From assembly GCF_000406145.1 (NCBI RefSeq), contig NZ_CM001976.1, positions 163,186 through 195,185 of the forward strand: a stretch of DNA of 32,000 nucleotides, given 5' to 3'. The position numbers were made by a program, and so were the translations under genes. The DNA is from Dickeya dadantii NCPPB 898. Its GTDB lineage: Bacteria; Pseudomonadota; Gammaproteobacteria; Enterobacterales; Enterobacteriaceae. A model generated the notes under the pieces. That model made no database searches. It was not told the origin of the DNA and saw only the letters and a program-made list of their open reading frames with translations. Positions 12,983 to 25,312 of the stretch are shown piece by piece (the stretch's first letter is position 1; the number at the start of each line of letters is the position of its first letter).

Positions 12983-13006
12983 GCGCGAAAAACCAACCGC
13001 GAACAT

Positions 13007-13036
13007 AAGCAACTGAAAGCAGATGTAAGCGGTTGG
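13007..13036. promoter_or_regulatory. three 10-bp-phased AAGC-initiated repeats (candidate Cox boxes at the switch region)
   Basis: aagcaactga | aagcagatgt | aagcggttgg. The first and third units match units of the att-arm array at 11491-11520 (aagcaactg, aagcggtt). Confidence 0.35.
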
Positions 13037-13178
13037 TGATCGAAAGAGAGTATCACGGTGAGGGGGAGAGGATGAAGGAAGACGATGTGCGGGAAGCTGA
13101 AGTTACAGCGGAATCACCCGTAATTAATACGTATGCCGTAACTCTTGAGATAAAGGCGAGGGTTAGCGAAGGCGCTAC

Positions 13179-13406: not shown

Positions 13407-13450
13407 GTTATTTTCCTTGTGTGGTTGGTTGATTGTTGGCACTTGAAATC

Positions 13451-13493
13451 TACCACAAAAACCACGCGCCGGGCGTGGTGAAATATCCCGGCA
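13451..13493 (+). repeat. copy 1 of a ~40-bp direct repeat (TACCACA..CACGCGCCGGGCGTGG..AAATATCCCGGCA)
   Basis: taccacaaaaaccacgcgccgggcgtggtgaaatatcccggca contains the stem CCACGC/GCGTGG. On the minus strand the hairpin is followed by TTTTT. Confidence 0.9.
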
Positions 13494-13539
13494 TGAATTT
13501 AATTAAAATAGATAAATGGCTAATAGTTTCTGCGGGTGG

Positions 13540-14004
13540 TTAACGAGGGATGCCGCCGCAAAAGAAAGAAAATAGCTTTTCCATAGGCGTCAATTTGCTA
13601 TTAGCCGGAAGGCCAAGCATAACAGCTGCCCGATGATAGGCGGGGCCACATAGTGAATAGGGGTGTGGGCTATCGGTTTGTTCTATTACATACTTTTTCT
13701 GCTTAATGATTTCAATATCACTGGTGTCGAGATCATCAAGGAGAATTCGATATTTTTGTGCCTGCTGTTTCGCACCTCCGGTTATTTCTCCGGGCTTGAG
13801 TGTAAAAAGTAGCGCCGAAATGATTGCAATTAAGATGCCGAGCAACAAACCGGAACCGTGTTCAGTTACAACAGCGCTACCGAGGAAAAACTGAATAAGG
13901 CAGAGCAGCTTATCGATACGTCGATTAAAAACCTCTGTAATTTTTTCAAGCTGGTAACTATAGGCAAGTTCGAAACGAATATTGTGAATTTGTTGCTCGT
14001 TCAT
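13540..14004 (-). CDS. small two-TM membrane protein of unknown function (SLATT-like topology; possible exclusion/abortive-infection effector)
   Basis: An AGGAG RBS lies 5 nt upstream of ATG 14004. There are two adjacent hydrophobic helices (KLLCLIQFFLGSAVV and LLLGILIAIISALLF) flanked by amphipathic helices. The sequence is AT-richer than the phage backbone. Confidence 0.6.
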   Translation of the reverse strand: MNEQQIHNIRFELAYSYQLEKITEVFNRRIDKLLCLIQFFLGSAVVTEHGSGLLLGILIAIISALLFTLKPGEITGGAKQQAQKYRILLDDLDTSDIEIIKQKKYVIEQTDSPHPYSLCGPAYHRAAVMLGLPANSKLTPMEKLFSFFCGGIPR

Positions 14005-14180
14005 ATGGACTCCTGGCTATTGGTATCCGCCCTTCTTTGTAGGCTTCGGGGCGGGACGGGGTGGAACGTGAAAATTGTCGGTGTCCTGTTCTGCGGAAGA
14101 TGCAGTGCTAAGCATGATGACTCGTCCTCTGTAGTTGGTGTTATGCCCGTTCTGGCTGGAACGTGTGGGCGTAGCGAGGA

Positions 14181-14221
14181 TACCACAGCGCACGCGCCGG
14201 GCGTGGCTAAAAATCCCGGTA
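14181..14221 (+). repeat. copy 2 of the ~40-bp direct repeat, 38 nt upstream of cox
   Basis: taccacagcgcacgcgccgggcgtggctaaaaatcccggta. Confidence 0.9.
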
Positions 14222-14258
14222 CATATTCAATAACGCAAAATGAAAAGCGAGGGTTGTG

Positions 14259-14531
14259 ATGAGTGAACGCGTTTATGAGGTTCGCTATCCGGTTGATGCT
14301 GTTCCGTATCAGAAATTTGCGGAATTGATCGGTAAGTCGGAAGCGGCAGTGAAAGGCATGGTTGATAATGGAAAATTGCCGCTTATTCCGTGGGTGAATC
14401 CTGAAAACCCTAATCCTCGTCGCGGTGAAAATTGGGTTTATATCCCGGAATTTAACCGTGCTATGCGCGATGCCTTTATGAACAGGCCGAAAGAACAGCG
14501 TGACGCATGGTTATTATGGCTGGGGTTATAG
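14259..14531 (+). CDS. cox: Cox (excisionase / Pc repressor), P2 Cox family
   Basis: DAVPYQKFAELIGKSEAAVKGMVDNGKLPLI...GENWVYIPEFN...RPKEQRDAWLLWLGL aligns with P2 Cox (AIPYQEFAKLIGKSTGAVRRMIDKGKLPVI...EYWVYLPAWN...RPKEIRDGWLMWLGL). I used ATG 14259, with a GAGGG RBS. Confidence 0.85.
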   Translation: MSERVYEVRYPVDAVPYQKFAELIGKSEAAVKGMVDNGKLPLIPWVNPENPNPRRGENWVYIPEFNRAMRDAFMNRPKEQRDAWLLWLGL

Positions 14532-14541
14532 GTGAATAATT

Positions 14542-14748
14542 ATGGTTAAAAAGGAATTTGCTGTTATTCGCCTGAGTAAGCACACCAGTATATATCGTGG
14601 CTTTTCAGTTGTTGAATATCCAAGAACAATCACAAACTCAATTAAGCGATATCGCGTTAGCAGGGAAGGGCAGTCTTACGGTTTATTTGATGCGCTGGCA
14701 TTAGCTACCGGTTATATCGACAGCTTACATAACAGCGTATATCAATAG
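14542..14748 (+). CDS. hypothetical early protein (68 aa)
   Basis: An AGGTGA RBS lies 6 nt before the ATG, directly after cox on the same strand. I recognise no motif. Confidence 0.5.
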   Translation: MVKKEFAVIRLSKHTSIYRGFSVVEYPRTITNSIKRYRVSREGQSYGLFDALALATGYIDSLHNSVYQ

Positions 14749-14782
14749 TGCAGCGATAAAGAATAAAAACAACACCAGAGAA

Positions 14783-14814
14783 ACCACGGCCGGGCGTGGC
14801 TAAATATCCCGGCA
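14783..14814 (+). repeat. copy 3 of the direct repeat, 48 nt upstream of the next early ORF
   Basis: accacggccgggcgtggctaaatatcccggca. Confidence 0.9.
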
Positions 14815-14861
14815 CCTATTTGCAACCGTCTATCTGTGGGCGGTTACCAATAGGAGGATCA

Positions 14862-15017
14862 ATGCAAAAACCAATCTCAATTGCGCCTTTCCTCTGGCAG
14901 CAACAGACAGAAAGCCGTATCAAACCAGAAATACGCCACGGAGAGGGCAAGCAAGGCATCATTATTCGGCCGGATGGCCGCCGTTGGAACCCGCCGAAAG
15001 GGGCGTTTAATCGGTAA
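14862..15017 (+). CDS. hypothetical early protein (51 aa)
   Basis: A strong AGGAGG RBS (14852-14857) lies 4-5 nt before ATG 14862. The track ORF starts at GTG 14796 inside the repeat, which I consider unlikely. Confidence 0.45.
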   Translation: MQKPISIAPFLWQQQTESRIKPEIRHGEGKQGIIIRPDGRRWNPPKGAFNR

Positions 15018-15029
15018 TCAGGAGGGAGC

Positions 15030-15359
15030 ATGTCTCAATCTGTCGATCATCAGAAATGGATACAGCGTTGCAGGGATATCGTGTTTAAAGGTGAATCCCG
15101 CGCTCAGTCATTTTGGGAGCGTGCTGCACTGGAAACGCGTGAGATTATCCTTTTTTCCGCAAAGCCAAAGCTGAAGTCGCGCCATGTCAATTACTCATGG
15201 CATCAGTTTACGGCGGAAGAGCGCGCCGCTATTTGGGGGGCAATTAAGCGCATCCGGTCTATTTGCGATGAAACTGCGCTATTTGGCCCGGATGATTTTC
15301 TGAAAACCAGTAATCAAAACGGCACACCCAATAAGCCGAGCCAGTCACCTATTCATTAA
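15030..15359 (+). CDS. hypothetical early protein (109 aa)
   Basis: An AGGAGGG RBS lies immediately upstream of the ATG, on the same strand as the early operon. I recognise no motif. Confidence 0.6.
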   Translation: MSQSVDHQKWIQRCRDIVFKGESRAQSFWERAALETREIILFSAKPKLKSRHVNYSWHQFTAEERAAIWGAIKRIRSICDETALFGPDDFLKTSNQNGTPNKPSQSPIH

Positions 15360-15430
15360 TTAACCCATAACAACGAATAAATGCCCTTTATCGGGCAGGG
15401 ATTCGTATTACCTGAAAAAAGGAAACCGTA

Positions 15431-15661
15431 ATGAAAAATGCCGAAGTAAAAACTATGACCGTCGCCGCTGATGGCGCACTGGTCGAGCTGCTGAAAAAGG
15501 CCCGATTGGAGGAACGCAAAGACCAGCATTTTTCCTTCTCACTGCGCCTTGCTGCGCTTGCTGTCCGCGCTCAACAACGCGACCTCTCTGCCGCCGAAGT
15601 GGTGGAACTTATACGCCAGGAATCAGAACGTTTTGAGCACTCCGCTCAGGGGCTGAGCTGA
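15431..15661 (+). CDS. DUF2732-like P2-family early protein
   Basis: LLKKARLEERKDQHFSFSLRLAALAVRAQQRDLSAAEVVELIRQE resembles the DUF2732 pattern recalled from P2-like prophages. An AAGGA RBS is present. Confidence 0.55.
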   Translation: MKNAEVKTMTVAADGALVELLKKARLEERKDQHFSFSLRLAALAVRAQQRDLSAAEVVELIRQESERFEHSAQGLS

Positions 15662-15885
15662 TGGACTCAATGGACATAGCTCAAGAGCGCGAAACGTTCA
15701 TCCGCGAAACGCAAATCCAGAAGGCCCGGCAACAGTCGGGCTATGCCGTTTCTGCATCCGTCTGTGAAAGCTGTGACGCACCGCCCCCCGAAGCCCGCCG
15801 CGTGGCCGTTCCGGGTGTGCGTCTGTGCGTGTACTGCCAGGGTGATGCTGAACTGAAAAACAAACACTATCGGGGGGCTTTATGA
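15661..15885 (+). CDS. TraR/DksA-family C4 zinc-finger protein (P2 Orf82-like)
   Basis: CESC...(N19)...CVYC four-Cys motif near the C-terminus. The start overlaps the previous stop (TGATG). Confidence 0.75.
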   Translation: MDSMDIAQERETFIRETQIQKARQQSGYAVSASVCESCDAPPPEARRVAVPGVRLCVYCQGDAELKNKHYRGAL

Positions 15886-16718
15886 GCACTATCGCCACAC
15901 CGCTGAAATGGGTCGGCAGCAAGGCCCGCGTGATGCATATCCTGCGCGAGCATTTACCGGCCGGCGACCGTCTGGTGGAACCGTTCGCCGGGTCTTGTGC
16001 GGTCATGATGAATACCGATTACCCGGAATACCTGATCGCCGATATCAATCCCGACCTGATTAACCTGTATCAGGTCATCAAAGAGGATGTGAAGGATTTT
16101 ATTGATACCGCCGAAGGTCTGTTTCGCACTGCGAATACAGCAGAAAGCTATTACCGCTTCCGGCAGGTATTTAATCGTAGCAAAGAGAATCGCACCACCT
16201 CAGCAGCACTGTTTCTTTATCTGAACCGGCACGGTTACCGGGGCGTTTGTCGCTATAACCGCGCCGGTGGGTTTAACGTTCCTTACGGGCATTATGCATC
16301 GCCTTATTTTCCACTGGCCGAGATTCAGGCATTTGCCGAAAAAGCCCGCCGTGCAAAATTCATCTGCGCCGCGTTTGGCGAAACGCTGCAACTGATTCAC
16401 CCCGGCGATGTGGTGTACTGCGATCCGCCATACATCCCGCAAACGCCAACGGCCAGCTTCACCAGTTATCACACCGATGGTTTCACCCACAACGATCAGT
16501 ATGACCTGTGCAGCGCGTTATCACGCCTGGCCGAGCGCGGGATCCCTGTCATCGCATCAAACAGCGACACTCACCACGCGCACAGCCTTTACCACCGGTT
16601 TGATATCTGCCGCTTCACCGCACCGCGTAGCGTCGGCGTTGCGGCTGGGGAAAGCAAACAAGCTGGGGAAATTATTGCTAAGCGTCTGCCGGTGCATGGG
16701 CAGCGAGGTGCCGCATAA
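15882..16718 (+). CDS. dam: DNA N6-adenine methyltransferase (Dam family)
   Basis: PLKWVGSKARVM, the SAM motif VEPFAGSCAV and the catalytic DPPY (VVYCDPPYIP) are present. The start overlaps the upstream stop (ATGA). Confidence 0.9.
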   Translation: MSTIATPLKWVGSKARVMHILREHLPAGDRLVEPFAGSCAVMMNTDYPEYLIADINPDLINLYQVIKEDVKDFIDTAEGLFRTANTAESYYRFRQVFNRSKENRTTSAALFLYLNRHGYRGVCRYNRAGGFNVPYGHYASPYFPLAEIQAFAEKARRAKFICAAFGETLQLIHPGDVVYCDPPYIPQTPTASFTSYHTDGFTHNDQYDLCSALSRLAERGIPVIASNSDTHHAHSLYHRFDICRFTAPRSVGVAAGESKQAGEIIAKRLPVHGQRGAA

Positions 16719-17632
16719 TGAGGGCTATCGATCTCTTCGCTGGATTCGGCGGCTCATCAACCGGCGCGCGTATGGCAGGAGCGCATGTGGTATGGGCTGC
16801 TAATCACTGGCCCGCTGCCGTTGAATATCATCGTTTAAACCATCCCGATGCAATCCACGTTTGTCAGGACTTGCATCAGGCTGACTGGAGTTCTGTCCCG
16901 GCACATGACCTGATGATGGCTTCCCCTTGCTGCCAGGGGCATAGCCGGGCACGCGGAAAAACAGCGGGTGATCCGCAGCATGATGCGAGTCGCTCGACAG
17001 CGTGGGCTGTTGTGTCCGCAGCCGAATATCACAAGCCCTCAGCAGTGATTGTTGAGAATGTGCCTGAATTTCTAAATTGGGCGTTGTATCCAGCATGGGC
17101 GGCGGCAATGGCGGCGTTGGGTTATGCGTTATCGCCACATGTTGTTGATTGTGCCGATCTGGGTGTTCCTCAGAATCGCGTCCGATTGTTTCTGATCTGC
17201 ACTCGCAGTCGCTCCCCACTTTCGCTCGACCTGCCTCGCCTCAGTCACGTCCCTGCCACCACATTCATTGATTTTGATGACGGAAGATGGTCACAGATAA
17301 ACCGTCCGGGTCGTGCAATATCGACGCTAGCACGCATCGAAAACGGTCGCCGTCAGTTCGGTGAACGATTCATTTTCAGCTACTACGGAAATACAAAATC
17401 GGGCCGCTCAATTGACAGGCCGATAGGCACAATTACAACCCGCGATAGATGGGCAGTGGTGGATGGTGATCGTATGCGGATGGTGACAAAGCGCGAGGTA
17501 TTGGCCGCAATGTCTTTTTCGTCATCGTATATCACGCCAGACAGCCACCGCCTGACAGTCAATATGGCGGGTAATGCTGTACCCCCCGTTGCTATGTGCC
17601 GGGTTGTTGAGGCCATAGGGGGTTGTCTGTGA
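16718..17632 (+). CDS. DNA C5-cytosine methyltransferase
   Basis: Motif I DLFAGFGG, motif IV SPCCQGHS, motif VI ENVPEF, motif VIII QNRVRLF and motif X GNAVPP are present. The start overlaps the dam stop (TAATG). Confidence 0.9.
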   Translation: MRAIDLFAGFGGSSTGARMAGAHVVWAANHWPAAVEYHRLNHPDAIHVCQDLHQADWSSVPAHDLMMASPCCQGHSRARGKTAGDPQHDASRSTAWAVVSAAEYHKPSAVIVENVPEFLNWALYPAWAAAMAALGYALSPHVVDCADLGVPQNRVRLFLICTRSRSPLSLDLPRLSHVPATTFIDFDDGRWSQINRPGRAISTLARIENGRRQFGERFIFSYYGNTKSGRSIDRPIGTITTRDRWAVVDGDRMRMVTKREVLAAMSFSSSYITPDSHRLTVNMAGNAVPPVAMCRVVEAIGGCL

Positions 17633-17916
17633 GCATTCTGCAACTCGCGGTGATGGGGGAATATTTCGCCGCAATGAAGGCTGGGATGAAGCCATTTGAA
17701 TACCGGTTGGACAATGCCTACTGGCGGCGTCGGCTCATTGGTCGGGATTATGAGCAACTGGTGATTACATGGGGCTATCCGGCTCGTTCTGATATGTCAC
17801 GCCGCCTGATCCTGCCCTGGCTTGGCTATGAAATGCAGACGATCACACATCCGCATTTTGGCGATAAACCGGTAAACGTGTTTGCTATACGGATCGGTGC
17901 TGGGGTTTGTGAGTGA
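17623..17916 (+). CDS. ASCH-domain-like small protein
   Basis: ILQLAVMGEYFAAMKAGMKPFEYRL...ITWGY resembles ASCH-domain phage proteins. The start (TTG 17623 or GTG 17629) is uncertain, and the stop overlaps the gene A start. Confidence 0.5.
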   Translation: MSVSILQLAVMGEYFAAMKAGMKPFEYRLDNAYWRRRLIGRDYEQLVITWGYPARSDMSRRLILPWLGYEMQTITHPHFGDKPVNVFAIRIGAGVCE

Positions 17917-19967
17917 TTGATTTACATGTCCCTGAACATAACGGCGCGTATCACGCTGTCAGGGAATGGCAGCGTGAGCAGTTTTCCCCCGGCGAGCCTG
18001 CCGGGCTGAGTTTCGTTGAGCGCAGCCTGTGGCACCTGAATAAGGTTGATCATTATTGGCGTCAGCAGTACCTGGCCGGAATGCCGGATTATCTGGCGAA
18101 GTATTTCGGCCAGCGTTATGAAAAGCTGTTTAAATCTGATGAGCACACCGGCCGCCGCCGGGCCAATACGTTTTTACTCCGTACCCTGGGGAAAAGCGTA
18201 TTGCCACGCCTGCGCACCGTTACCGAACGATACCAGACGCAACAGCGTGCGGCGGGAGATCTGCCGTTCCCGTTCTGCGATGATCTGGAAAAGATGCCGG
18301 TTTATGACCGTGACAACATCCGCGCCTTATCGCAACAGGTTGCCGACTTTATGGCCGCATCGTTACGTGACTACACCGAAAACCGCATCAGAAACACTGG
18401 AAATCTGACGGACAGGTATATTACCCTGCTGTCGTTTCGCCACCTTGGCTTGCTGACCTTGCAGGCCGGAACACAACCGCCTTACTGGGCGCAATTCACC
18501 AAAGGCCGCCGCCCGTTATCCACCGAGAAAGCCGAATCCGGCCTGTTACGCATGATGTCACCGGAGTGGTGGCGGGCGCGACTAAAACGCCGCCGCGATA
18601 TCCAGCGGGAGCATATGGCTATCGCGGTCGGCCAGGTGCAAAAGGCGGCGTCACCCTATGTTTCCCGCTCCACGCTGGATGAATGGAAAGAGCAGAAACG
18701 GCGTAACCGGGAGTTTTTCAAGGCGTTTGATCTGGAAGATGAAGAGGGTAACCGTGTTTCTCTGGATGACATGGTTAATGCCAGCAACGCCAACCCGGCA
18801 ATCCGCCGTTGTGAGCTGATGGTGAGAATGCGCGGCTTTGAGGATTTGGCGCAGGAAATGGGCTGCGCCGGAGAGTTTTACACCATCACCGCGCCGTCAC
18901 GGTATCACGCTGTACACAGTGGCGGCGGGTTCGTTGAGCAGTGGAGCGGTGCCAGCCCACGCGACACACAGAAATACCTGTGCGGTGTGTGGGCGCGTAT
19001 CCGGGCGGAGCTGTCACGCGAAGAGATTAGCGTGTTCGGCTTCCGTGTCGTCGAACCGCATCACGACGGTACGCCGCACTGGCATTTGTTGTTATTCATG
19101 CGCCCGGAGCACATTGAACAGGTGCGTGACATCATGGCGTATCACGCCCGCCGGGAAGACTCCGGCGAGCTGAACAGTGAAAAGGCGCAAAAAGCCCGCT
19201 TCCACTATGAACCGATTGACCCGGAAAAAGGCAGTGCTACGGGTTATATCGCCAAGTACATCAGCAAGAATATCGACGGTTACGCACTGGATGGCGAGGC
19301 CGACGAGGAAACCGGGGAAAACCTGCGCGACATGGCAAAGGCGGTATCTGCCTGGGCGTCGCGCTGGCGTATCCGGCAATTTCAGCAAATCGGTGGCGCG
19401 CCGGTGACGGTTTACCGCGAGTTGCGTCGCCTGGGTGATAAGCAACTGGATAACGCGGCGATGGATGCGGTACTGGCGGCGGCAGATGTAGGCGACTGGG
19501 CGGCATACACACAGGCGCAGGGCGGGCCGTTAGTCTCGCGTGATGAGTTGGTGGTGCGCCTGTCTTATGAAGTGACCGAGCGTGCCAATCAGTACGCCGA
19601 AGACGTGCAAAAGGTTCAGGGGGTGTACTCGCCATTATTAGGGGAGCGCTCCGCGATCATCACTCGAACGGTGGAATGGAAGATTGTCCCGAAACAGGCC
19701 GCCGCGTCAGCGGGGGCCGGGGTTTCTGGCGGCCCCGCCGCCGCTTGGAGTTCTGTCAATAACTGTACGTCGGGCCTACGGCGGCGATTATCGGAACTGT
19801 TGCGCTTACGCGGTTTTCCGCCTGATCCGGGGCTGGTCGATGTGCTGATTCGTGGCTGCAATCTGGCAATAAGCGAGGGCAGGGCGCTGAAAATGGTTAA
19901 CGGTAGGCTGGAGGAAGTAGGCCAGACAGGGGATTGCGAGCTGTGGCCGGGGTGGAATTGGGAGTAA
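17913..19967 (+). CDS. A: replication initiation endonuclease, P2 gpA family
   Basis: The HUH-type motif VVEPHHDGTPHWHLLLF and the catalytic tyrosine motif GYIAKYISKNIDG are present. It has the size and position of P2 A. Confidence 0.9.
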   Translation: MIDLHVPEHNGAYHAVREWQREQFSPGEPAGLSFVERSLWHLNKVDHYWRQQYLAGMPDYLAKYFGQRYEKLFKSDEHTGRRRANTFLLRTLGKSVLPRLRTVTERYQTQQRAAGDLPFPFCDDLEKMPVYDRDNIRALSQQVADFMAASLRDYTENRIRNTGNLTDRYITLLSFRHLGLLTLQAGTQPPYWAQFTKGRRPLSTEKAESGLLRMMSPEWWRARLKRRRDIQREHMAIAVGQVQKAASPYVSRSTLDEWKEQKRRNREFFKAFDLEDEEGNRVSLDDMVNASNANPAIRRCELMVRMRGFEDLAQEMGCAGEFYTITAPSRYHAVHSGGGFVEQWSGASPRDTQKYLCGVWARIRAELSREEISVFGFRVVEPHHDGTPHWHLLLFMRPEHIEQVRDIMAYHARREDSGELNSEKAQKARFHYEPIDPEKGSATGYIAKYISKNIDGYALDGEADEETGENLRDMAKAVSAWASRWRIRQFQQIGGAPVTVYRELRRLGDKQLDNAAMDAVLAAADVGDWAAYTQAQGGPLVSRDELVVRLSYEVTERANQYAEDVQKVQGVYSPLLGERSAIITRTVEWKIVPKQAAASAGAGVSGGPAAAWSSVNNCTSGLRRRLSELLRLRGFPPDPGLVDVLIRGCNLAISEGRALKMVNGRLEEVGQTGDCELWPGWNWE

Positions 19968-20400
19968 TAATTTATTGAATGCTGGTGATATATTTGAATA
20001 GTATGATTATTTATTAAAAATATTAATATTATTTTTTAGTAAAAGTTAGCTGACTAAATAAAATGTTTATTTGATTATTACTGGTTAGGCAATCGACTGA
20101 TTTTGCGAGGACGTATGTAAGTAACTGAAAATATTAATATATTTTTATCTCAGTACTATGACTGGTAAGCAAGGAGCATGGAGTGTTGGGGGTGAGATAG
20201 AAGTACAGGGTACTCTTGTGGTTACTAAGTGAATGAGATCTGATGGTTCTTTGTTTTTCCCTTTGATTGTATACGTACCTTAGAACAAAAAAAGATGCGT
20301 TTTCGATCTTTTTTCCCTATAGTACGCACGATTTTTATGCCATAAATATAGGTAAGACATTATGGCATTTTGTTCACACACATGTAGTCTGGAGGCTCTC

Positions 20401-21399
20401 ATGAACGATACTAATCATATGAGAAGCATATATAATAAATTCCAAAGCGCTGGTTTCAACCTGTCGTACATCAGGAGCTTATTGCCTGAATGGTGGGATG
20501 AGCGATTGGCTGATACCCCTTCGGGGCGTCAGTACGCAAGCCTGCACTTGGCTCGAATGTTTAGTATTTTACCTGAAAGCCTTAAGGATGAGAGCGAAGG
20601 GATTTGTTTTAATTTTGGTGGAAATCATAAATTTAAGCATCGGAATAATGTTGCTGATGATGATTTAGATATAGCGACTGCAATTGCTTATACTGCTGCA
20701 AAAATTGTTGCATCGAATTTTAAAAAACCATATGACCCGCAGATAGTTCTAGATCCAGAACTAATCAGAAAAGATACGATGGAAAGTAATCCATGGGTTT
20801 CACTTGGGAATTTGGTTGAATATTGTCACTCAGTGGGAATTCCTGTTATATATCTTAAGAAATTCCCTCGTGGTGCTAAGAAAATGGCTGGTTTAGCTTT
20901 AATGAGTTGCGGAAGACCAGTAATTATATTAACCCAACCTCAAAAGTATGGGTATATGCTTTTTGATTTGGCGCATGAGTTGGGGCATATTGCGAAAGGG
21001 CATTTAAATGCTGAAAATGGACAATGTCATGTGGATGAGAAGATTGAGTCAGCCTCAACTAGTGATATTGAAAAAGAAGCTAATGAGTTTGCGTTTCAAG
21101 TCCTTTCTGGACAAAAATCTCTTCGCATTGTACCTACAGGACGCTTTTTAAAAGCGCCTCAACTGGCAAATGCGGCAAAAAAATTTGGCAGCGAAAGAGG
21201 TGTTGACCCTACCCATATTGCCTTGAATTACGGTTTTGTTATGGGACACTGGGGGGTGGCAGTAAATGCCGTGAAGGCTATTTGTAACGGACACCCCACC
21301 GATCAGAACTTCATCAAGGATATGATGAAAAAGGGAATAGATTTAGAAAGCATCAATGAAGATGATCTAAATATTCTGGAAAATCTTATCGGGGAATGA
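20401..21399 (+). CDS. ImmA/IrrE-family (COG2856, peptidase M78) zinc metallopeptidase with an uncharacterised N-terminal domain
   Basis: FDLAHELGHIAKGH (HEXXH at nt 20974-20988), the downstream EKEANEFAFQVL and the upstream GIPVIYLKKFP...GRPVIILT form the canonical ImmA/IrrE arrangement. A GGAGG RBS lies 5 nt before ATG 20401; the track ORF starts at ATG 20362. Confidence 0.8.
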   Translation: MNDTNHMRSIYNKFQSAGFNLSYIRSLLPEWWDERLADTPSGRQYASLHLARMFSILPESLKDESEGICFNFGGNHKFKHRNNVADDDLDIATAIAYTAAKIVASNFKKPYDPQIVLDPELIRKDTMESNPWVSLGNLVEYCHSVGIPVIYLKKFPRGAKKMAGLALMSCGRPVIILTQPQKYGYMLFDLAHELGHIAKGHLNAENGQCHVDEKIESASTSDIEKEANEFAFQVLSGQKSLRIVPTGRFLKAPQLANAAKKFGSERGVDPTHIALNYGFVMGHWGVAVNAVKAICNGHPTDQNFIKDMMKKGIDLESINEDDLNILENLIGE

Positions 21400-21402
21400 T
21401 AC

Positions 21403-22044
21403 GTGATTGTTCTTTCTGACAATGATGTCATATTGAAGTTAGCTCAATGTAATCTACTATCACAATTATCTACGATATTAAATGAGCAACCTGATCAAAT
21501 TTTCATTAACCCAGCAGCTAGGTACCAGCTGCTTCCTGATAATCCAGATAAAGCAATTCGAAAGTGTGGAAGTCAGCAAATATATGAACAGCTGGGGGCT
21601 TTCATTGAATCGGTAAATGATGTTCCTGAAATTATGAATCTTTCCCTTTTGGAATTATTGGGTGATGTGCCTAATATAGACGTGGGTGAGCAATTTTTGC
21701 TTGCTTCCTGTATTGAGAATCCAGATGCGATATTTATGACGGGTGATCGTAGATGCCTATCTGCAATTATTTCGAATAAAGCCACTCTGGCTACTATTCA
21801 TCAGCGTCTAATTGATGCCGTCGTTACATTTGAATCATCACTACTATTATGTGTTCATGGCTCAACGGTTGCTCATGTTCATAGTCAGCTGATGGGTAAT
21901 CCGAAACCGGATGTTGTACTTAGGATGGCCCTTGCTAATTCTGGTAGTGCCATGTGTGAATGTTTATTTTCTTACACTCGTGATTTTTATGAATACCTTG
22001 CTTTTAAAGATAGGTTACCAGATAGGGAGTGGGGTCTGCAGTAA
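21403..22044 (+). CDS. hypothetical protein, possible PIN-like nuclease; translationally coupled to the peptidase gene
   Basis: The GTG start is 3 nt after the upstream TGA. The N-terminal IVLSDNDVILKL, then DVGEQFLLASC, then IFMTGDRRCL, then LIDAVV give an acidic-residue order reminiscent of PIN-like folds. The call as a CDS is fairly safe, but the fold call is weak. Confidence 0.5.
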   Translation: MIVLSDNDVILKLAQCNLLSQLSTILNEQPDQIFINPAARYQLLPDNPDKAIRKCGSQQIYEQLGAFIESVNDVPEIMNLSLLELLGDVPNIDVGEQFLLASCIENPDAIFMTGDRRCLSAIISNKATLATIHQRLIDAVVTFESSLLLCVHGSTVAHVHSQLMGNPKPDVVLRMALANSGSAMCECLFSYTRDFYEYLAFKDRLPDREWGLQ

Positions 22045-22135
22045 ATAATAGCAAACTTATAATAAGTCACTTGGTGGTTATAATAAATCAATACATATCT
22101 CTAAAATAGCTGCTTTATATCTATACGTTTTGTAT

Positions 22136-22532: not shown

Positions 22533-23585
22533 TCACTCGGCTTTCAACAGGGCGTAAGGGTTGAAGCGGATCACCTCCATCCCCAGCCAATCATTCACAT
22601 GCTTAAGCGCTTCCATCACCGGCATCAGTTCGTTGATGGCGAACACCCGCGCGGCTTTCTCCACATCGCCAAAGGAGCCGTTACCCTCCGGCATGGCGCC
22701 CATCAGTTGCGGCGGCACGCGGTGCGCCGCGAGGATATCGTCACGCGTCACCGATTTGATATTCAGGAATTCATCTTTGGCCGATATCTGGCTGAAGGGA
22801 ATAATCTGTACCCCTTTTTCACCGCCGCCCGGCGCGTGTAACAGCAGGTTTTTAAACGCGCCTTTACCGCGCGCTTCCTTCAGCGTTTTCTTCACGTTAT
22901 CCATGCTTTCGGTATCCACCTGGGATGCGCCGATGTAGATAATGCACCCGGCGTGCGAACCGTTGTCATAGTAGAGCTTGCGGAACATATCGGCAGAGTG
23001 CGACAGGCTGGCCGACAGCAGCGCGCCCATGTACTCGGGCATACCGTAGATCTCCTGGTGAATATCCGGGTTGATGACGTGGCACACGCTGTCGGTATCA
23101 AACGTGTGTTCATCTTTCCACTGCCGGATAAACCAATAGGTATTCAGATCGCTGCCGCGCCGGGTGTACTTGGCCGGAACGTGGCGCAGGGACAACACGC
23201 CGCCCAGCCGGTTGACCCGGCGTTCAAGGTAACCGTTGCCGAAAACAAACCAGTCGAGCACGAAGGCGGAGAACGCCTGACGCGACAATAGCGGGTGCGG
23301 GATAAAGCACCCGGTCAGCGCATTGCGTTTGAAGTACAGCGCGGACTGGTGCCATGACGCACTACCAAACGCGCGAGCCAGCCCGTACCAATCCACCGGG
23401 GTGTCGTAATAACGGCCATTGTCGGCGCAATACATGTTATCCAGCAGGTCATGGCCATCCCTGACCGGATAGGGGCCGTCAAAGGTAAACGCGCTCAGCC
23501 CCGGATCGCTTTTCAGGGCCGCCGCCATATCCGGCTGACTGGCGGTAACCGCCCGGTGTGTGCCGGTTTTATCTTTTCTTTTCAT
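22533..23585 (-). CDS. Q: portal protein, P2 gpQ family
   Basis: A 350-aa ORF in the gpQ position. WHQSALYFKRNALTGCF...FVFGNGYLERR... is typical of P2-family portals. The start overlaps the P stop (TGATG). Confidence 0.9.
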   Translation of the reverse strand: MKRKDKTGTHRAVTASQPDMAAALKSDPGLSAFTFDGPYPVRDGHDLLDNMYCADNGRYYDTPVDWYGLARAFGSASWHQSALYFKRNALTGCFIPHPLLSRQAFSAFVLDWFVFGNGYLERRVNRLGGVLSLRHVPAKYTRRGSDLNTYWFIRQWKDEHTFDTDSVCHVINPDIHQEIYGMPEYMGALLSASLSHSADMFRKLYYDNGSHAGCIIYIGASQVDTESMDNVKKTLKEARGKGAFKNLLLHAPGGGEKGVQIIPFSQISAKDEFLNIKSVTRDDILAAHRVPPQLMGAMPEGNGSFGDVEKAARVFAINELMPVMEALKHVNDWLGMEVIRFNPYALLKAE

Positions 23586-25312
23586 CAGAACTCCATCGCA
23601 AAGCCACCGCCGCCCTGCTCCTGGCCGAGTGGTTCATTGATGACGGCCAGCATGGTTGCCCAGGCCAGATCGCCATGATTAGAGCCGCGTGCGCGGTCGG
23701 TGTCGTAAGTCATGATGCCGCCCGGCGTCTTGACGCGCCGCACGGCGTTGAACGCATTGATTAGCGCCCGTTCGCTGCGGTCGTATTCCCAGCGGCCGGC
23801 ACGAATGACCTGAAGCATTTTCAGCACTAGGGCGCGTTTGGATGACACCGACATCAGGAAGCACACCGCCGCCGGGAAGAATTTCTTCACAATCTGGTAG
23901 ACCGCTTCGCCAATGCCGGTGCCATCAATGGCGATATGCTGCACGTTGTATTTGAAGGTCAGCGCTTCGATCACTTTCGCCTGTTCTTCGAACTCCAGAC
24001 CGCGTATTTGCTGGGTTTCGATGGTGCGGAACTTGCCGCCTGCCACCAGTGGCGGCACCACCACCGAGATCGCCCCGCTGTCGCCGTTGCCGCTGCTGCC
24101 GTTGGCGTCATAACCAATCCAGACGCCGCGATCGGCCATTGGGCGTGACGCGAAGGGCTTCCAGTCCGGCCATTCGTCGTAACCGTCGGCACCGCAGGCG
24201 ATAAGTGCATTCAGATTGAACGCCGACTCACCATCACGGACGAACTCACACATATACAGGTTGAGAAAATCATCCCCGCTGTTTTCATCCTGAATTTCTT
24301 CCAGGTCGGTGTATTCCCAGCCGTGATCGATGACATCCTGTAGCGTCACAATCTGACGCCAGGTTTTGTCCGGGCACAGCAGGCCGCTATTGAGTGCTTT
24401 CCATGACACATCAAACGCGACCTTTTGCGCCTTGCTGCGTTTCTCATTCCAGCGTGCGCCCGTCCAGAATGGGTACGCTTCATGGGTTTCACTCGATGGG
24501 GTGGAAAAGTAAGTGCGCGTCAGCCCCTTCAGCGTCGCCATAGCGCCCGCCACTTTGCGCAAATTGGTGAAGTTGCTGACCCAAAAAAACTCGTCAAACT
24601 TCAGATTCCCGGTATAGGACTGTGCCGTTGCCGCAGACGTGCCGAGGAAATGCAGCTCAGCCCCGTTGCTCAGGACGATTTTGTCACCGCCTTTCAGCTC
24701 AACGTCCACCTCCTCCGCTACCTTCTGGATAAAGCCCCGGAACTGGTGCGCCTGCCGACGTGATGCCGACAGAAAAATCTGGTTGCGCTGATAGGGGTAT
24801 TTCACATCGTCGCGCAGTGCATCAAGCAGCGCTTCACGCGCAAAATACCAGGTGGCACCAATCTGGCGTGACTTCAGGATCATGCGGTTTCGGTGGTGAC
24901 GTTGCTCATACCAGCCACGTTGATGCCACGAAAGGGAATCCAGTATTTTTTCCCGTAGCGCGGCGATCTGTTCGTCAGTGAAGTGATTTTTAACCTTGCG
25001 CTGGCGGGGTTTCTTGCCGCCTGCGGCATTGCCCGGCTGGCCGTCATTCAGCGTTTTCAACTGCCGGGTCAGCGCGTCCATTTCCTTCAGGTCGCCACCG
25101 GTTTTAGTCGGCTTCTGGGCCAACTGGCACAACCGCGCATCAATAGAATGCGTCACGCGCTGGATAGGCGGCGTTTCGTCCCATTCGTCGCGCTTTTTCC
25201 AGGCATACACCGTGTTTTGATTAATCCCCATCAGGCGCGAAATTTCCGCTGGCGGGTAACCCTGCCAGTAAAGCTGTTTTGCTCGCTGCCGTACAAATGC
25301 GTCCTGAATCAT
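23585..25312 (-). CDS. P: terminase large (ATPase) subunit, P2 gpP family
   Basis: An N-terminal HTH-like segment (ISRLMGINQNTVYAWKKRDEW) and the ATPase segment ILKSRQIGATWYFA are present. The size and position are those of gpP, divergent from O. Confidence 0.9.
   Translation of the reverse strand: MIQDAFVRQRAKQLYWQGYPPAEISRLMGINQNTVYAWKKRDEWDETPPIQRVTHSIDARLCQLAQKPTKTGGDLKEMDALTRQLKTLNDGQPGNAAGGKKPRQRKVKNHFTDEQIAALREKILDSLSWHQRGWYEQRHHRNRMILKSRQIGATWYFAREALLDALRDDVKYPYQRNQIFLSASRRQAHQFRGFIQKVAEEVDVELKGGDKIVLSNGAELHFLGTSAATAQSYTGNLKFDEFFWVSNFTNLRKVAGAMATLKGLTRTYFSTPSSETHEAYPFWTGARWNEKRSKAQKVAFDVSWKALNSGLLCPDKTWRQIVTLQDVIDHGWEYTDLEEIQDENSGDDFLNLYMCEFVRDGESAFNLNALIACGADGYDEWPDWKPFASRPMADRGVWIGYDANGSSGNGDSGAISVVVPPLVAGGKFRTIETQQIRGLEFEEQAKVIEALTFKYNVQHIAIDGTGIGEAVYQIVKKFFPAAVCFLMSVSSKRALVLKMLQVIRAGRWEYDRSERALINAFNAVRRVKTPGGIMTYDTDRARGSNHGDLAWATMLAVINEPLGQEQGGGGFAMEF

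What the first reader, a model, noticed from the sequence alone, without database searches (positions are those of the whole stretch)
20362..22044. AT-rich two-gene operon (ImmA/IrrE-type Zn-peptidase + PIN-like protein) in the P2 A-cos-Q cargo hotspot: candidate undescribed anti-phage / protease-controlled toxin system
Seen in sequence:
- Between the stop of replication gene A (19967) and the cos/portal end, the only substantial ORFs are two co-directional genes.
- They are separated by 3 nt (TGA tac GTG, with GGGGA just upstream), which suggests an operon with coupled translation.
- Gene 1 has the complete ImmA/IrrE (COG2856, M78) signature in its C-terminal half: GIPVIYLKKFP..., FDLAHELGHIAKGH with HEXXH at 20974-20988, and EKEANEFAF.
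- Its ~170-aa N-terminal region matches nothing I recognise and has no obvious XRE-type HTH.
- Gene 2 (213 aa) has an acidic-residue pattern reminiscent of PIN-like nucleases (IVLSDNDVILKL ... DVGEQFLL ... FMTGDRRCL ... LIDAVV).

Established knowledge:
- In P2-like phages this exact slot (tin/old in P2) is a documented variable hotspot for defence systems (Rousset et al. 2022).
- COG2856 peptidases act as proteolytic switches on partner repressors or antitoxins. Examples are ImmA/ImmR, IrrE/DdrO, the Xre-COG2856 TA-like modules predicted by Makarova et al. 2009, and RosmerTA.

Inference: this is a protease-plus-nuclease pair acting as a lysogen-encoded defence or TA-like module. I do not recognise this HTH-less peptidase plus PIN-like combination as a named system.
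Basis: partly seen in the sequence, partly recalled or inferred. Interest (0 to 1): 0.9.

Follow-up and report, generated by a model that had tools for sequence, protein, structure and literature searches.

The report
Protease-guarded PIN-like toxin in prophage hotspot
A P2-type prophage carries, in its known defence-gene slot, a tightly coupled gene pair (a zinc peptidase plus a PIN-like putative nuclease) that is conserved as a pair across many bacterial phyla and most resembles the recently characterised VapBC52 self-cleaving toxin-antitoxin system, but whose two protein families have never been named or tested.

Summary
Two co-directional genes fill the AT-rich gap (GC 0.34-0.40 against about 0.58) between the P2 replication gene A and the portal gene. 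One correction: ORF1 starts at ATG 20401 (332 aa), not 20362.

ORF1 is an M78/ImmA-IrrE peptidase. It has an invariant HEXXH...E site, a five-helix N-terminal domain and a helical tail. ORF2 (213 aa) matches no Pfam, NCBIfam or PADLOC model. Its confident AlphaFold model finds only PIN/VapC structures as top hits, and seven acidic residues are invariant down to 19% identity.

The pair is strictly conserved. 64 of 66 loci from Proteobacteria, Cyanobacteria, Planctomycetes, Acidobacteria and an unclassified bacterial bin have ORF1 directly upstream of ORF2, usually overlapping or within 8 nt. In Enterobacterales it recurs in exactly this P2 hotspot.

The kind is not new. Peptidase(COG2856)+PIN operons were predicted in 2009 and 2017. 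M. tuberculosis VapBC52 (2026) showed an M78 antitoxin that self-cleaves to free a PIN toxin. Rousset 2022 already lists this pair as untested hotspot cargo.

Verdict: an uncharacterised, widespread variant of a known kind, and a plausible abortive-infection module. Interest is moderate.

The parts
19968..22110 (.). AT-rich cargo island between gene A (stop 19967) and the cos/portal end of a P2-like prophage
   Evidence: GC is 0.34-0.40 against 0.55-0.60 in the flanks. Flanking genes are identified by PHROGs. The same slot is occupied by homologous pairs in all 14 Klebsiella/Citrobacter-type places shown and in 2 annotated E. coli loci.
20245..20400 (+). Conserved leader/promoter block that travels with the module. 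It holds a TATAGT box (20318-20323), a perfect 9-bp inverted repeat ATGCCATAA (20337-20345) - N14 - TTATGGCAT (20360-20368), and the SD GGAGG (20391-20395).
   Evidence: Alignment of six P2 loci, including the diverged subfamily, has 65% mean column identity and invariant TATAGT and GGAGGCTCT. The inverted repeat was read directly from the sequence. It is perfect only in the window. Promoter and operator function are inferred.
20401..21399 (+). ORF1, 332 aa: three-part M78/ImmA-IrrE zinc peptidase, the putative antitoxin/sensor
   Evidence: Pfam PF06114 26.6 bits (cut-off 22), aa 172-248 of the long form. PHROG 18577 E 4e-160. 387 homologues, all about 332 aa. AF2 pLDDT 87.8. The best PDB sequence hit of the family profile is 9vzy_A = VapB52.
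20401..20595 (+). ORF1 N-terminal five-helix domain (aa 1-65) with invariant G18, P29, W31 and near-invariant W32 (LPxWW)
   Evidence: Helices 6-17, 21-27, 34-38, 40-53 and 58-61 in the AF2 model. Conservation in 124 non-redundant sequences. No HTH family by Pfam or PDB profile. hhalign against XRE domains gives probability 8%.
20629..20643 (+). Linker motif K77-F78-K79-H80-R81, family pattern [KR]-[FY]-K; candidate self-cleavage site
   Evidence: K79 124/124, F/Y78 122/124, K/R77 116/124. It lies in the lower-confidence segment aa 70-90 (pLDDT 61-64). It is positionally analogous to the F75-R76 'FR motif' of VapB52. Cleavage is inferred, not shown.
20755..21150 (+). ORF1 M78 catalytic core (aa ~119-250): HELGH 20974-20988, H201, loop with C209 and D212, E224
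   Evidence: H192, H196 and H201 124/124; E193, D212 and E224 123/124; C209 only 29/124. In the alignment to VapB52, HEFVH...C229...E245 is in register.
21151..21396 (+). ORF1 C-terminal helical region (aa 251-332; five helices)
   Evidence: AF2 helices 252-266, 270-281, 284-294, 301-312 and 320-329, pLDDT >90. Conserved over the full length in all homologues.
21403..22044 (+). ORF2, 213 aa, GTG start 3 nt after the ORF1 stop: PIN-like putative nuclease (toxin/effector) with a C-terminal helical extension of about 60 aa
   Evidence: AF2 pLDDT 93.2, pTM 0.90. The top six Foldseek PDB hits by E-value are all PIN/VapC (probability 0.85-0.99, TM on target 0.52-0.60). Invariant D6, N7, D8, K12, D93, G95, E96, D115, E144 and D170 across 34 sequences down to 19% identity. 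1436 representative clusters. No Pfam, NCBIfam or PADLOC model.

Best explanation
This is a two-gene toxin-antitoxin-like module carried as cargo in the gpA-portal defence hotspot of a P2-like prophage (closest relatives in Dickeya dadantii).

ORF2 is a PIN-like metal-dependent nuclease, most likely an RNase, that acts as the toxic effector. ORF1 is made first and in excess: ORF2 is translated by coupling from a weak GTG/TTG start. ORF1 binds and neutralises ORF2 through its non-catalytic N- and C-terminal domains. Its M78 zinc-peptidase core serves as the trigger. On a signal produced during phage infection or DNA damage (ssDNA in the VapBC52 and CapP precedents), the peptidase is de-repressed and cuts ORF1 itself. 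The most likely site is the invariant [KR]-[FY]-K motif in the linker between the N-terminal domain and the peptidase. Cleavage releases the nuclease, which arrests the cell and aborts the infection, protecting the lysogen population.

Shown here:
- the domain identities
- strict pairing and translational coupling
- invariant catalytic-type residues in both proteins
- recurrent hotspot location

Inferred by analogy:
- neutralisation by binding
- self-cleavage and its site
- the trigger
- the RNA target
- the defence phenotype
For: (1) Pairing. 64 of 66 loci have a full-length ORF1 homologue directly upstream on the same strand. This holds even at 19-30% ORF2 identity, across Gamma- and Betaproteobacteria, Cyanobacteria, Planctomycetes, Acidobacteria and an unclassified bacterial bin. 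The two exceptions are contig ends.

(2) Coupling. The gap is 8 nt or less in 50 of 60 loci, and 18 of those overlap. ORF2 starts with GTG or TTG in 51 of 60.

(3) Gene order is large antitoxin first, toxin second, as in VapBC52.

(4) ORF1 catalytic residues. H192, H196 and H201 are invariant in 124 sequences, and E193 and E224 occur in 123 of 124. Pfam M78 is above threshold.

(5) Similarity to VapB52. The ORF1 family profile's best PDB sequence hit is VapB52 (9vzy_A, E 0.012), ahead of CapP, with HExxH, the Cys-switch position and the Glu ligand in register.

(6) Architecture. ORF1 has a five-helix NTD, then a linker, then M78, then a helical C-terminus. This parallels VapB52.

(7) Linker motif. 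The invariant aromatic-basic motif (F78-K79) parallels the VapB52 FR cleavage motif.

(8) ORF2 fold. The model is confident and the top structural hits are all PIN/VapC. The invariant acidic residues follow strands 1, 4 and 5 and cap helix 94-105.

(9) Location. Two diverged subfamilies sit in the same P2 slot in every place shown, which is the main P2 defence hotspot. Elsewhere the pair lies next to integrases, Type III/I R-M genes and Tn7-like genes.

(10) Precedent. VapC52 overexpression gives phage resistance in M. smegmatis.
Against: - No experiment exists on this family: toxicity, neutralisation, cleavage and defence are all inferred.
- ORF2 has no sequence-level link to any PIN family: Pfam, NCBIfam and PDB profile searches are all negative, and hhalign against VapC is null. 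The Foldseek E-values are weak (0.2-0.8). I could not verify that the acidic residues cluster in 3D.
- The second canonical PIN acidic residue (after strand 2) is absent.
- The similarity of ORF1 to VapB52 is confined to the M78 core and is marginal (18 bits).
- The NTD is not demonstrably XRE-like.
- The Cys-switch is not conserved in the family (C209 in 29/124; any Cys in the loop in 37/124), so the activation mechanism may differ.
- Many non-phage loci have ordinary chromosomal neighbours, so a defence role is not obligatory.
- The pair is rare in E. coli (13 of 5426 complete genomes).
Confidence: 0.55

Rival explanations
1. Protease-activated effector. ORF1 does not neutralise ORF2 by binding. 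Once triggered, it cleaves ORF2 (for example removing its conserved ~60-aa C-terminal extension) or cleaves a third, host- or phage-encoded protein. This would resemble CapP cleaving CapH or ImmA cleaving ImmR.
For: M78 peptidases characterised so far mostly cleave a partner protein (ImmA/ImmR, IrrE/DdrO, CapP/CapH). ORF2 carries a conserved C-terminal extension, containing invariant D170, that typical VapC toxins (~130 aa) lack.
Against: Antitoxin-first gene order, weak coupled start codons for ORF2 and strict 1:1 pairing fit a stoichiometric neutraliser. An invariant aromatic-basic motif lies in ORF1's own flexible linker. The only characterised M78+PIN pair works by self-cleavage. In Phormidium (L040) the catalytic Glu and the Glu ligand are lost while ORF2 stays intact. 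An obligatorily protease-activated effector would then be useless.
Confidence: 0.15
2. A plain addiction or stress-response TA module with no anti-phage role. It stabilises the prophage or island, or responds to DNA damage, and sits in the hotspot only because that site tolerates insertions.
For: Many loci are chromosomal with housekeeping neighbours. VapBC52's clearest phenotype is in virulence, and its phage phenotype comes from toxin overexpression. Pneumococcal and Brucella Xre/COG2856 pairs have been discussed as TA or stress modules.
Against: Two diverged subfamilies recurrently occupy the principal P2 defence hotspot. Some loci adjoin Type III/I R-M and Tn7-like cargo regions. TA modules with sensors commonly act as abortive-infection systems (established knowledge).
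Confidence: 0.15
3. Reversed polarity. The M78 protein ORF1 is the toxic component and ORF2 neutralises or modulates it. This was found unexpectedly for PD-lambda-2B, an Xre-M78 fusion that is toxic on its own.
For: In PD-lambda-2, over-expressing the Xre-peptidase alone was toxic and was rescued by its partner. PADLOC's best hit for ORF1 is PD-Lambda-2_B (E 2e-10, M78 core only).
Against: ORF2 has the conserved acidic constellation and fold of a nuclease rather than of an antitoxin. Gene order and weak ORF2 start codons argue for ORF2 being the dangerous, under-produced partner. Two loci carry frameshifted ORF2 with intact ORF1 (L044, L066), the usual decay pattern of a toxin gene.
Confidence: 0.07
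4. Prophage regulatory protease. ORF1 is an ImmA-like anti-repressor that cleaves the phage's own XRE-type C repressor (12625-12951, minus strand) to induce the prophage, and ORF2 is an accessory.
For: ImmA/ImmR is the founding example of M78 function. The prophage does encode an XRE-type HTH protein next to its integrase.
Against: The pair is absent from most P2-like prophages (13 of 5426 E. coli genomes). It lies about 7.5 kb from the repressor, inside the variable cargo slot. It occurs with the same partner in non-phage contexts in Cyanobacteria, Planctomycetes and others. Its obligate partner is a nuclease-like protein, not a repressor.
Confidence: 0.04

Closest known systems
VapBC52 (Rv2515c/Rv2514c) of Mycobacterium tuberculosis (Singh et al., NAR 2026, PMC13273310)
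   Same: It is a two-gene operon with a large multi-domain antitoxin first and a PIN-fold toxin second. The antitoxin has a five-helix NTD, a linker with a conserved aromatic-basic motif, an IrrE/M78 HEXXH peptidase and a helical C-terminus. VapB52 is the best PDB sequence match to the ORF1 family profile, with Zn ligands in register, and the window's C209 lies within one residue of the Cys-switch C229. Its toxin also carries an extra C-terminal helix and is linked to phage resistance.
   Different: No sequence similarity is detectable outside the M78 core. ORF1 is 332 aa against 415 aa. Its NTD is not detectably XRE-like and carries a family-specific LPxWW signature. The motif is F-K rather than F-R. 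The Cys-switch is not conserved across the family (29/124), whereas H201 and D212 are invariant. ORF2 is 213 aa with a ~60-aa extension and is not a DUF4411/Pfam PIN member. The taxa differ (Proteobacteria/Cyanobacteria against Actinobacteria), and here the pair is phage-borne.
Predicted Xre-COG2856(DUF955)-PIN 'three-component' TA systems (Makarova 2009, PMC2701414; Matelska 2017, PMC5499597)
   Same: An M78/COG2856 peptidase gene sits in one operon with a downstream PIN-like gene. These operons are abundant in prophages and mobile elements. The predicted logic is a protease acting as the switch that frees a PIN toxin.
   Different: Those predictions involve a recognisable Xre HTH (fused or adjacent) and the PIN families DUF4411, COG2405, PIN_14, PIN_20 or PIN_26. 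Here no HTH is detectable by sequence, and ORF2 matches neither DUF4411 nor DUF3368/COG2405 in Pfam. Membership of the unnamed clusters PIN_14/20/26 could not be tested.
RosmerTA (RmrT/RmrA) and PD-lambda-2 anti-phage systems
   Same: Both are validated defence systems that contain an M78 peptidase fused to other domains. ORF1 hits their PADLOC models (PD-Lambda-2_B 2e-10; RmrA down to 3e-7).
   Different: The hits cover only the M78 core (ORF1 aa ~133-255). RmrA and PD-lambda-2B have an N-terminal Xre HTH. Their partners are unrelated (RmrT; HigB-like plus a P4-antitoxin-like protein). ORF2 hits no PADLOC model.
CapP/CapH regulators of CBASS; ImmA/ImmR; IrrE(PprI)/DdrO
   Same: They share the M78 fold and HEXXH...E site. 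CapP and PprI appear among the few structural or sequence PDB matches. The peptidase acts as a damage- or ssDNA-sensing switch.
   Different: Those peptidases cleave a separate HTH repressor to de-repress transcription. No such repressor gene accompanies the pair, and no CBASS or ICE genes are nearby. Here the conserved partner is a nuclease-like protein.

Membership tests
Peptidase M78 / ImmA-IrrE (PF06114, COG2856) | Profile match above the curated threshold | tested here: met
   PF06114 26.6 bits against a cut-off of 22, E 5.8e-6. Precomputed PF06114 on most of the 120 listed homologues.
Peptidase M78 / ImmA-IrrE (PF06114, COG2856) | HEXXH zinc site plus a downstream Glu ligand | tested here: met
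   H192 124/124, E193 123/124, H196 124/124, E224 123/124. In register with VapB52 H216/E217/H220/E245.
Peptidase M78 / ImmA-IrrE (PF06114, COG2856) | Fold similarity to solved IrrE/PprI/CapP | tested here: inconclusive
   The only non-random Foldseek hits are PprI (8sln, probability 0.63) and PrpR (6cyj). E is 0.24-0.8 and TM 0.25, because the query is a full-length multi-domain model.
PIN-like nuclease superfamily | Alpha/beta/alpha sandwich with a parallel five-stranded sheet; structural similarity to PIN domains | tested here: met
   AF2 pLDDT 93. Four strands of three or more residues (3-5, 33-35, 110-113, 140-142) and a two-residue one (72-73) alternate with helices. The six best Foldseek PDB hits by E-value are all PIN/VapC (PAE0151 probability 0.99, Shigella VapC 0.91-0.95, Caulobacter VapC 0.91, F-plasmid VapC 0.85), with TM on target 0.52-0.60. 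E-values are weak (0.2-0.5), so the relationship is distant.
PIN-like nuclease superfamily | Three or four conserved acidic residues at the C-terminal ends of the strands forming the metal site | tested here: inconclusive
   D6 (after strand 1), D93/E96 (N-cap of helix 94-105), D115 (after strand 4) and E144 (after strand 5) are invariant in 34 sequences down to 19% identity. The canonical acidic residue after strand 2 is missing.
PIN-like nuclease superfamily | Sequence-profile match to a PIN-clan family (PF01850, DUF4411/PF14367, DUF3368 and others) | tested here: not met
   No PIN-clan hit for any of 34 diverse members even at E up to 10. None in NCBIfam. The profile against PDB sequences finds no PIN. 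hhalign against Shigella VapC is null.
VapBC52-type M78-antitoxin / PIN-toxin TA | Two-gene operon: large antitoxin (NTD + M78 + helical C-terminus) upstream of a PIN-fold toxin | tested here: met
   Domain layout from the AF2 secondary structure compared with the published description. Pairing in 64 of 66 loci.
VapBC52-type M78-antitoxin / PIN-toxin TA | Conserved aromatic-basic ('FR') motif in the NTD-peptidase linker as the self-cleavage site | tested here: inconclusive
   An analogous [KR]-[FY]-K motif is present (K79 124/124, F/Y78 122/124) in a lower-confidence linker. It is F-K, not F-R, and cleavage is untested.
VapBC52-type M78-antitoxin / PIN-toxin TA | Cysteine-switch loop as fourth Zn ligand | tested here: inconclusive
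   The window's C209 aligns within one residue of VapB52 C229. Only 29/124 family members have Cys at this column, and 37/124 have one anywhere in the loop.
VapBC52-type M78-antitoxin / PIN-toxin TA | XRE-like DNA-binding fold of the antitoxin NTD | tested here: inconclusive
   The five-helix topology is compatible. There is no Pfam HTH family in 40 members and no PDB profile hit. hhalign against five XRE domains gives probability 8%.
VapBC52-type M78-antitoxin / PIN-toxin TA | ssDNA-triggered autoproteolysis; tRNA cleavage by the toxin; 1:2 complex | not testable with these tools
   Biochemical properties reported for VapBC52. They need experiments or multimer modelling.
Xre-COG2856-PIN predicted three-component TA (Makarova 2009 / Matelska 2017) | Xre-family HTH fused to or adjacent to the peptidase | tested here: not met
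   No HTH is detectable in ORF1 by sequence, and no HTH gene lies in the island. A 489-aa paralogue in Calothrix does carry an extra XRE HTH in front of the ORF1-like region.
Xre-COG2856-PIN predicted three-component TA (Makarova 2009 / Matelska 2017) | PIN partner belongs to DUF4411, COG2405, PIN_14, PIN_20 or PIN_26 | tested here: inconclusive
   DUF4411 and DUF3368 (COG2405) are not matched. PIN_14/20/26 have no public models in the libraries available, so membership could not be tested.
RosmerTA / PD-lambda-2 (PADLOC) | Full-length match of the peptidase component and presence of the cognate partner(s) | tested here: not met
   Hits cover only ORF1 aa 133-255 (E 2e-10 to 3e-3). ORF2 has no hit. 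There is no HigB-like or RmrT gene.
ImmA/ImmR-type anti-repressor module | Adjacent cognate XRE repressor gene that is the protease substrate | tested here: not met
   No HTH gene adjoins the pair in the window or in 64 other loci. The nearest XRE protein is the phage C-like repressor at 12625-12951, about 7.5 kb away.

The most novel reading that the evidence does not exclude
The ORF1/ORF2 superfamily (over 1,400 clusters at 50% identity, spread across at least four bacterial phyla) is a distinct, self-contained sensor-effector immune module and not just another VapBC. Three features set it apart:
- Its N-terminal domain, with the invariant LPxWW signature, is a new toxin-clamping or signal-sensing domain.
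- Its peptidase is gated by something other than the Cys-switch, for example the invariant H201/D212 loop. It would then respond to a trigger other than ssDNA.
- The nuclease is a new PIN-like family whose conserved C-terminal extension, with invariant D170, contributes to catalysis or target choice.

If so, it would be a new named defence family carried by P2 phages and many other mobile elements.
Probability: 0.3. Interest if true: 0.65.

Novelty: new variant of a known kind. Interest (0 to 1): 0.45.

Why it matters
The kind of system, an M78 peptidase acting as the built-in trigger of a PIN toxin, was a 17-year-old prediction. It received its first mechanistic study only in 2026, in a slow-growing pathogen.

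This family is a much more tractable and far more widespread version:
- It has over 1,400 ORF2 clusters.
- It is strictly paired with ORF1.
- It is carried by P2 phages of E. coli, Klebsiella and Dickeya in the classic defence hotspot.

Neither protein has a name in Pfam, NCBIfam or PADLOC. Testing it would do three things. It would show whether protease-gated PIN toxins are a general anti-phage strategy. It would reveal what the peptidase senses when the Cys-switch is absent. It would also add a model to defence-annotation tools for a pair now labelled 'ImmA/IrrE peptidase + hypothetical protein'.

Tried and rejected
- Phage collection: DNA (megablast) and tblastn searches of the INPHARED phage collection found nothing, so the pair is absent from deposited phage genomes at these thresholds.
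- Exact-sequence lookup of ORF2 found nothing on record.
- Single-sequence PDB searches returned only noise, plus CapP at E 0.38.
- ORF1 full-length Foldseek was diluted by its multi-domain nature.
- HTH in the ORF1 NTD: not supported by Pfam scans of 40 members or by a PDB profile, and hhalign against XRE domains recalled from memory gave only 8%. I therefore do not call it an HTH.
- A sequence link between ORF2 and PIN was rejected at sequence level: Pfam (34 members), NCBIfam, the PDB profile and hhalign against VapC were all negative.
- Named defence systems: PD-lambda-2, RosmerTA, CapP and PDC-M69 match only the M78 core and were rejected as memberships.
- The first literature search was too loose to be useful, and a search for 'M78 peptidase' plus 'defense system' found no paper.
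- The consensus promoter/terminator scan was no better than shuffles. The conserved leader was instead found by alignment.
- The 9-bp inverted repeat is perfect only in the window, so operator function is only a suggestion.

Full report
OBSERVATION

The window is a P2-type prophage. A gpA-like replication nickase (17913-19967; PHROG 91, E 8e-257) is followed by an AT-rich gap. After the gap, on the minus strand, come the portal (22533-23585) and large terminase (23585-25312), then scaffold and major capsid genes. An integrase lies at 11575-12603. GC falls from 0.55-0.60 to 0.34-0.40 between 20001 and 22000.

The closest homologues are from Dickeya dadantii: 97% identity for ORF1 and 94% for ORF2.

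One correction is needed. ORF1 starts at ATG 20401 (332 aa), not at 20362. The evidence:
- PHROG 18577 aligns from residue 15 of the long form.
- All homologues are 329-335 aa.
- An invariant GGAGGCTCTyATGA precedes this ATG in six independent P2 loci.

ORF1

ORF1 passes the Pfam M78 (ImmA/IrrE) threshold: 26.6 bits against a cut-off of 22. Conservation in 124 non-redundant family members:

| Residue | Count |
|---|---|
| H192 | 124/124 |
| E193 | 123/124 |
| H196 | 124/124 |
| H201 | 124/124 |
| D212 | 123/124 |
| E224 | 123/124 |

The AlphaFold model (pLDDT 87.8) has three parts:
- Five short N-terminal helices (aa 6-61), followed by a lower-confidence linker (aa 70-90).
- The peptidase core (aa ~119-250), with one disordered loop at aa 207-220.
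- Five C-terminal helices.

The N-terminal domain carries invariant G18, P29 and W31, and near-invariant W32. No sequence method recognises it as an HTH. Pfam scans of 40 diverse members and a profile search of PDB sequences were both negative. hhalign against classic XRE domains gives only 8% probability, although the alignment falls in the expected register.

PADLOC hits (PD-Lambda-2_B, CapP, RmrA, PDC-M69B) cover only the M78 core.

ORF2

ORF2 has no hit in Pfam, NCBIfam or PADLOC. The same is true of 34 relatives spanning 19-69% identity. Its PHROG (15597) has unknown function.

The AlphaFold model is confident (pLDDT 93.2, pTM 0.90). The six best PDB matches by Foldseek E-value are all PIN/VapC domains: PAE0151, Shigella, Caulobacter and F-plasmid VapC. 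Their probabilities are 0.85-0.99 and TM 0.52-0.60 on the target, over about 130 residues. E-values are only 0.2-0.5.

Across the superfamily, D6, N7, D8, K12, D93, G95, E96, D115, E144 and D170 are invariant. D6, D115 and E144 immediately follow strands 1, 4 and 5, and D93/E96 cap a helix. That is the layout of a PIN metal site. The canonical acidic residue after strand 2 is missing, however, and I could not check 3D clustering.

Sequence methods do not link ORF2 to any PIN family. I therefore call ORF2 a PIN-like fold with a conserved catalytic-type constellation and a ~60-residue C-terminal extension. It is not a member of any named PIN family. An exhaustive profile search finds 1,436 representative clusters (727 at E<=1e-10), nearly all standalone proteins of 195-220 aa.

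THE PAIR

I surveyed 66 loci: 5 retrieved by exact-protein lookup and 61 from a scan of one genome per species. In 64 of them a full-length ORF1 homologue lies directly upstream of the ORF2 homologue on the same strand. The two exceptions are contig ends.

The taxa include Enterobacterales, Methylococcales, Janthinobacterium, Zoogloea, Psychrobacter, Pseudomonas, Marinobacter, Alteromonadaceae, Holophagaceae, Gemmatales and Planctomycetia, an unclassified bacterial bin (L063), and many Cyanobacteria.

Gene coupling is conserved:
- The intergenic gap is 8 nt or less in 50 of 60 loci, and 18 of those overlap.
- ORF2 starts with GTG or TTG in 51 of 60 loci.
- This fits translational coupling with under-production of the downstream protein.

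HEXXH is present in all full-length ORF1 homologues but one. The exception is Phormidium L040, which has HKLGH, E224Q and F78I alongside an intact ORF2. Two loci have a frameshifted ORF2 with an intact ORF1 (L044, L066).

CONTEXT

Two diverged enterobacterial subfamilies (73% and 58% identical to ORF1) are indexed in 71 and 122 collection blocks. In all 14 places displayed they sit in exactly the gpA-portal slot of P2-like prophages. The same holds in the two annotated E. coli chromosomes I inspected, where RefSeq labels the pair 'ImmA/IrrE family metallo-endopeptidase | hypothetical protein'. Only 13 of 5,426 complete E. coli genomes carry it.

The gpA-gpQ gap is the principal defence hotspot of P2 (PMC9122126; PMC13586616).

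A leader of about 110 nt is conserved between the subfamilies, so the module travels with its own control region. It contains:
- a TATAGT box at 20318-20323
- the SD at 20391-20395
- in the window only, a perfect inverted repeat ATGCCATAA-N14-TTATGGCAT at 20337-20368

Outside P2 the pair occurs in several settings:
- next to an integrase in Methylococcus
- in an E. coli island with D5-type primase, SSB and PerC genes
- directly upstream of genes hitting Type III R-M models in several loci (by gene size and position, the Methylococcales loci L014, L015, L016 and L022)
- near Type I R-M, MADS-like and Tn7-like TniB/TniQ genes
- among ordinary chromosomal genes

WHAT IS KNOWN

Makarova et al. 2009 noted that COG2856-Xre fusions, naming Rv2515c, often share operons with PIN or RelE toxins in prophages. 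They predicted a protease-controlled three-component TA. Matelska et al. 2017 repeated this for DUF4411, COG2405, PIN_14, PIN_20 and PIN_26.

In June 2026 Singh et al. characterised Rv2515c/Rv2514c as VapBC52:
- The 415-aa antitoxin has a five-helix NTD that binds the toxin, an IrrE-type peptidase middle domain, and a helical CTD that occludes the PIN active site.
- Zn is held by H216, H220, E245 and a Cys-switch, C229.
- ssDNA triggers HEXXH-dependent self-cleavage near a conserved F75-R76 motif in the NTD-peptidase linker.
- VapC52 cleaves tRNAs, and when over-expressed it protects M. smegmatis from phage.

The ORF1 family profile's best PDB sequence hit is 9vzy_A (E 0.012). I identify 9vzy_A as VapB52 from its length, its chain count and the exact H216/H220/C229/E245 spacing in the alignment. 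The window's C209 falls within one residue of C229.

ORF1 also has an invariant [KR]-[FY]-K motif (K77-F78-K79) in the equivalent linker.

The differences from VapBC52:
- No similarity is detectable outside the M78 core.
- The NTD has its own signature.
- The Cys is present in only 29/124 members, whereas H201 and D212 are invariant.
- ORF2 is not a DUF4411 protein.

PD-lambda-2 (HigB-like + Xre-M78 + P4-antitoxin-like) and RosmerTA have different partners.

Rousset et al. 2022 list 'Peptidase_M78 + hypothetical (WP_052929074 + WP_064106679)' in their supplementary table of P2 hotspot loci. WP_052929074 is the accession annotated in the E. coli loci I inspected. The main text neither names nor tests the pair. 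I found no paper that does.

MECHANISM

The best-supported reading (confidence about 0.55) is a VapBC52-like, protease-gated toxin-antitoxin module used as abortive-infection cargo. ORF1 clamps and silences the ORF2 nuclease. A phage- or damage-derived signal activates the peptidase, which cuts ORF1, probably at the F78-K79 linker motif. The freed nuclease then arrests the cell.

What is shown: domain identities, strict pairing, coupling, conserved catalytic-type residues and hotspot recurrence.

What is inferred by analogy: binding, self-cleavage, the trigger, the RNA target and the defence phenotype.

The rivals are weighed in the Rival explanations section:
- a protease that cleaves ORF2 or a third protein
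- a pure addiction or stress module
- reversed polarity, as in PD-lambda-2B
- an ImmA-like anti-repressor acting on the phage C repressor

VERDICT

This is an uncharacterised and unexpectedly widespread variant of a known, recently validated kind of system. It is not a categorically new one. It is a good experimental candidate of moderate interest (0.45).

Noticed in passing
window 19968-20245: About 280 nt of very AT-rich non-coding DNA (GC about 0.3) lies between the gene A stop and the conserved leader. It holds AT-rich palindromes and a 15-nt inverted repeat, 93% complementary (20016-20030 / 20130-20144). In the Klebsiella, Citrobacter and E. coli P2 loci the whole gpA-ORF1 gap is only about 158 nt, so this stretch is specific to the window's lineage. 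It may be a remnant of earlier cargo exchange.
   Followed up: partly
window 20337-20368: A perfect 9-bp inverted repeat (ATGCCATAA-N14-TTATGGCAT) lies between the conserved TATAGT box and the SD of ORF1. The Klebsiella-type loci instead show AGTTATGAC ... GTCATAACT flanking the TATAGT box.
   Followed up: partly
window 21403; loci L001-L066: ORF2 homologues start with GTG or TTG in 51 of 60 loci and overlap or abut the ORF1 stop. This points to systematic under-translation of the putative toxin.
   Followed up: yes
L040:8998-9990 (Phormidium sp.): The ORF1 homologue has lost the catalytic Glu (HKLGH), the Glu ligand (E224Q) and the linker aromatic (F78I) together, while its ORF2 partner is intact. 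This is a natural variant consistent with neutralisation not requiring proteolysis (n = 1).
   Followed up: partly
L044:9844-10546 and L066:9973-10673: The ORF2 homologue appears frameshifted or split next to an intact ORF1 homologue, the decay pattern expected for a toxin gene.
   Followed up: no
L062:16768-20333 (Calothrix sp.): A second, longer ORF1 paralogue (489 aa) carries a canonical XRE HTH (aa ~82-160; RmrA and CapH N-terminal hits) in front of an ORF1-like NTD+M78 region. It sits in a different cluster, with a 149-aa ORF upstream and then a Cys-rich 210-aa ORF and a 334-aa radical-SAM-like ORF (CNWRCWYC) downstream. This may be another protease-controlled system.
   Followed up: partly
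L075:6095-6793 and L077:6095-6793: In some Citrobacter-type P2 prophages an extra 232-aa gene with a Type II DNA methyltransferase-like region (PADLOC MTase_II 1e-26) is stacked between gpA and the pair, so the hotspot can hold more than one cargo.
   Followed up: partly
L014, L015, L016, L022 (Methylococcales): The pair is immediately followed by large genes of about 1.5 kb and 2.0-2.7 kb. The neighbour survey found four Type III R-M methylase hits and four ResIII hits, which I attribute to these loci from gene size and position. The scan does not report per-locus hits, so the attribution is not confirmed. If it holds, this is a defence-island-like arrangement outside phages.
   Followed up: partly
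window 15882-17632: Two consecutive DNA methyltransferase genes (278 and 304 aa; PHROGs 56/116) lie just upstream of gene A. The homologous Klebsiella and E. coli prophages have one Dam-type methylase there, sometimes with a second Dcm-type one.
   Followed up: no
window 10500-15500: This is a second region of lower GC (0.42-0.51), around the integrase (11575-12603, minus strand). It includes an XRE-type HTH protein (12625-12951, minus strand; C-repressor-like) and several small ORFs without PADLOC hits (for example 13540-14004, PHROG 6315, function unknown). The integrase-primase interval is a minor P2 defence hotspot according to PMC13586616.
   Followed up: partly
plasmid record NC_015969.1 (Enterobacter soli, 32,574 bp): A record deposited as a non-mobilizable 'plasmid' carries an ORF2 homologue (74% identity) and has the size of a P2 genome. 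It is probably an episomal or mis-binned P2-like phage.
   Followed up: no
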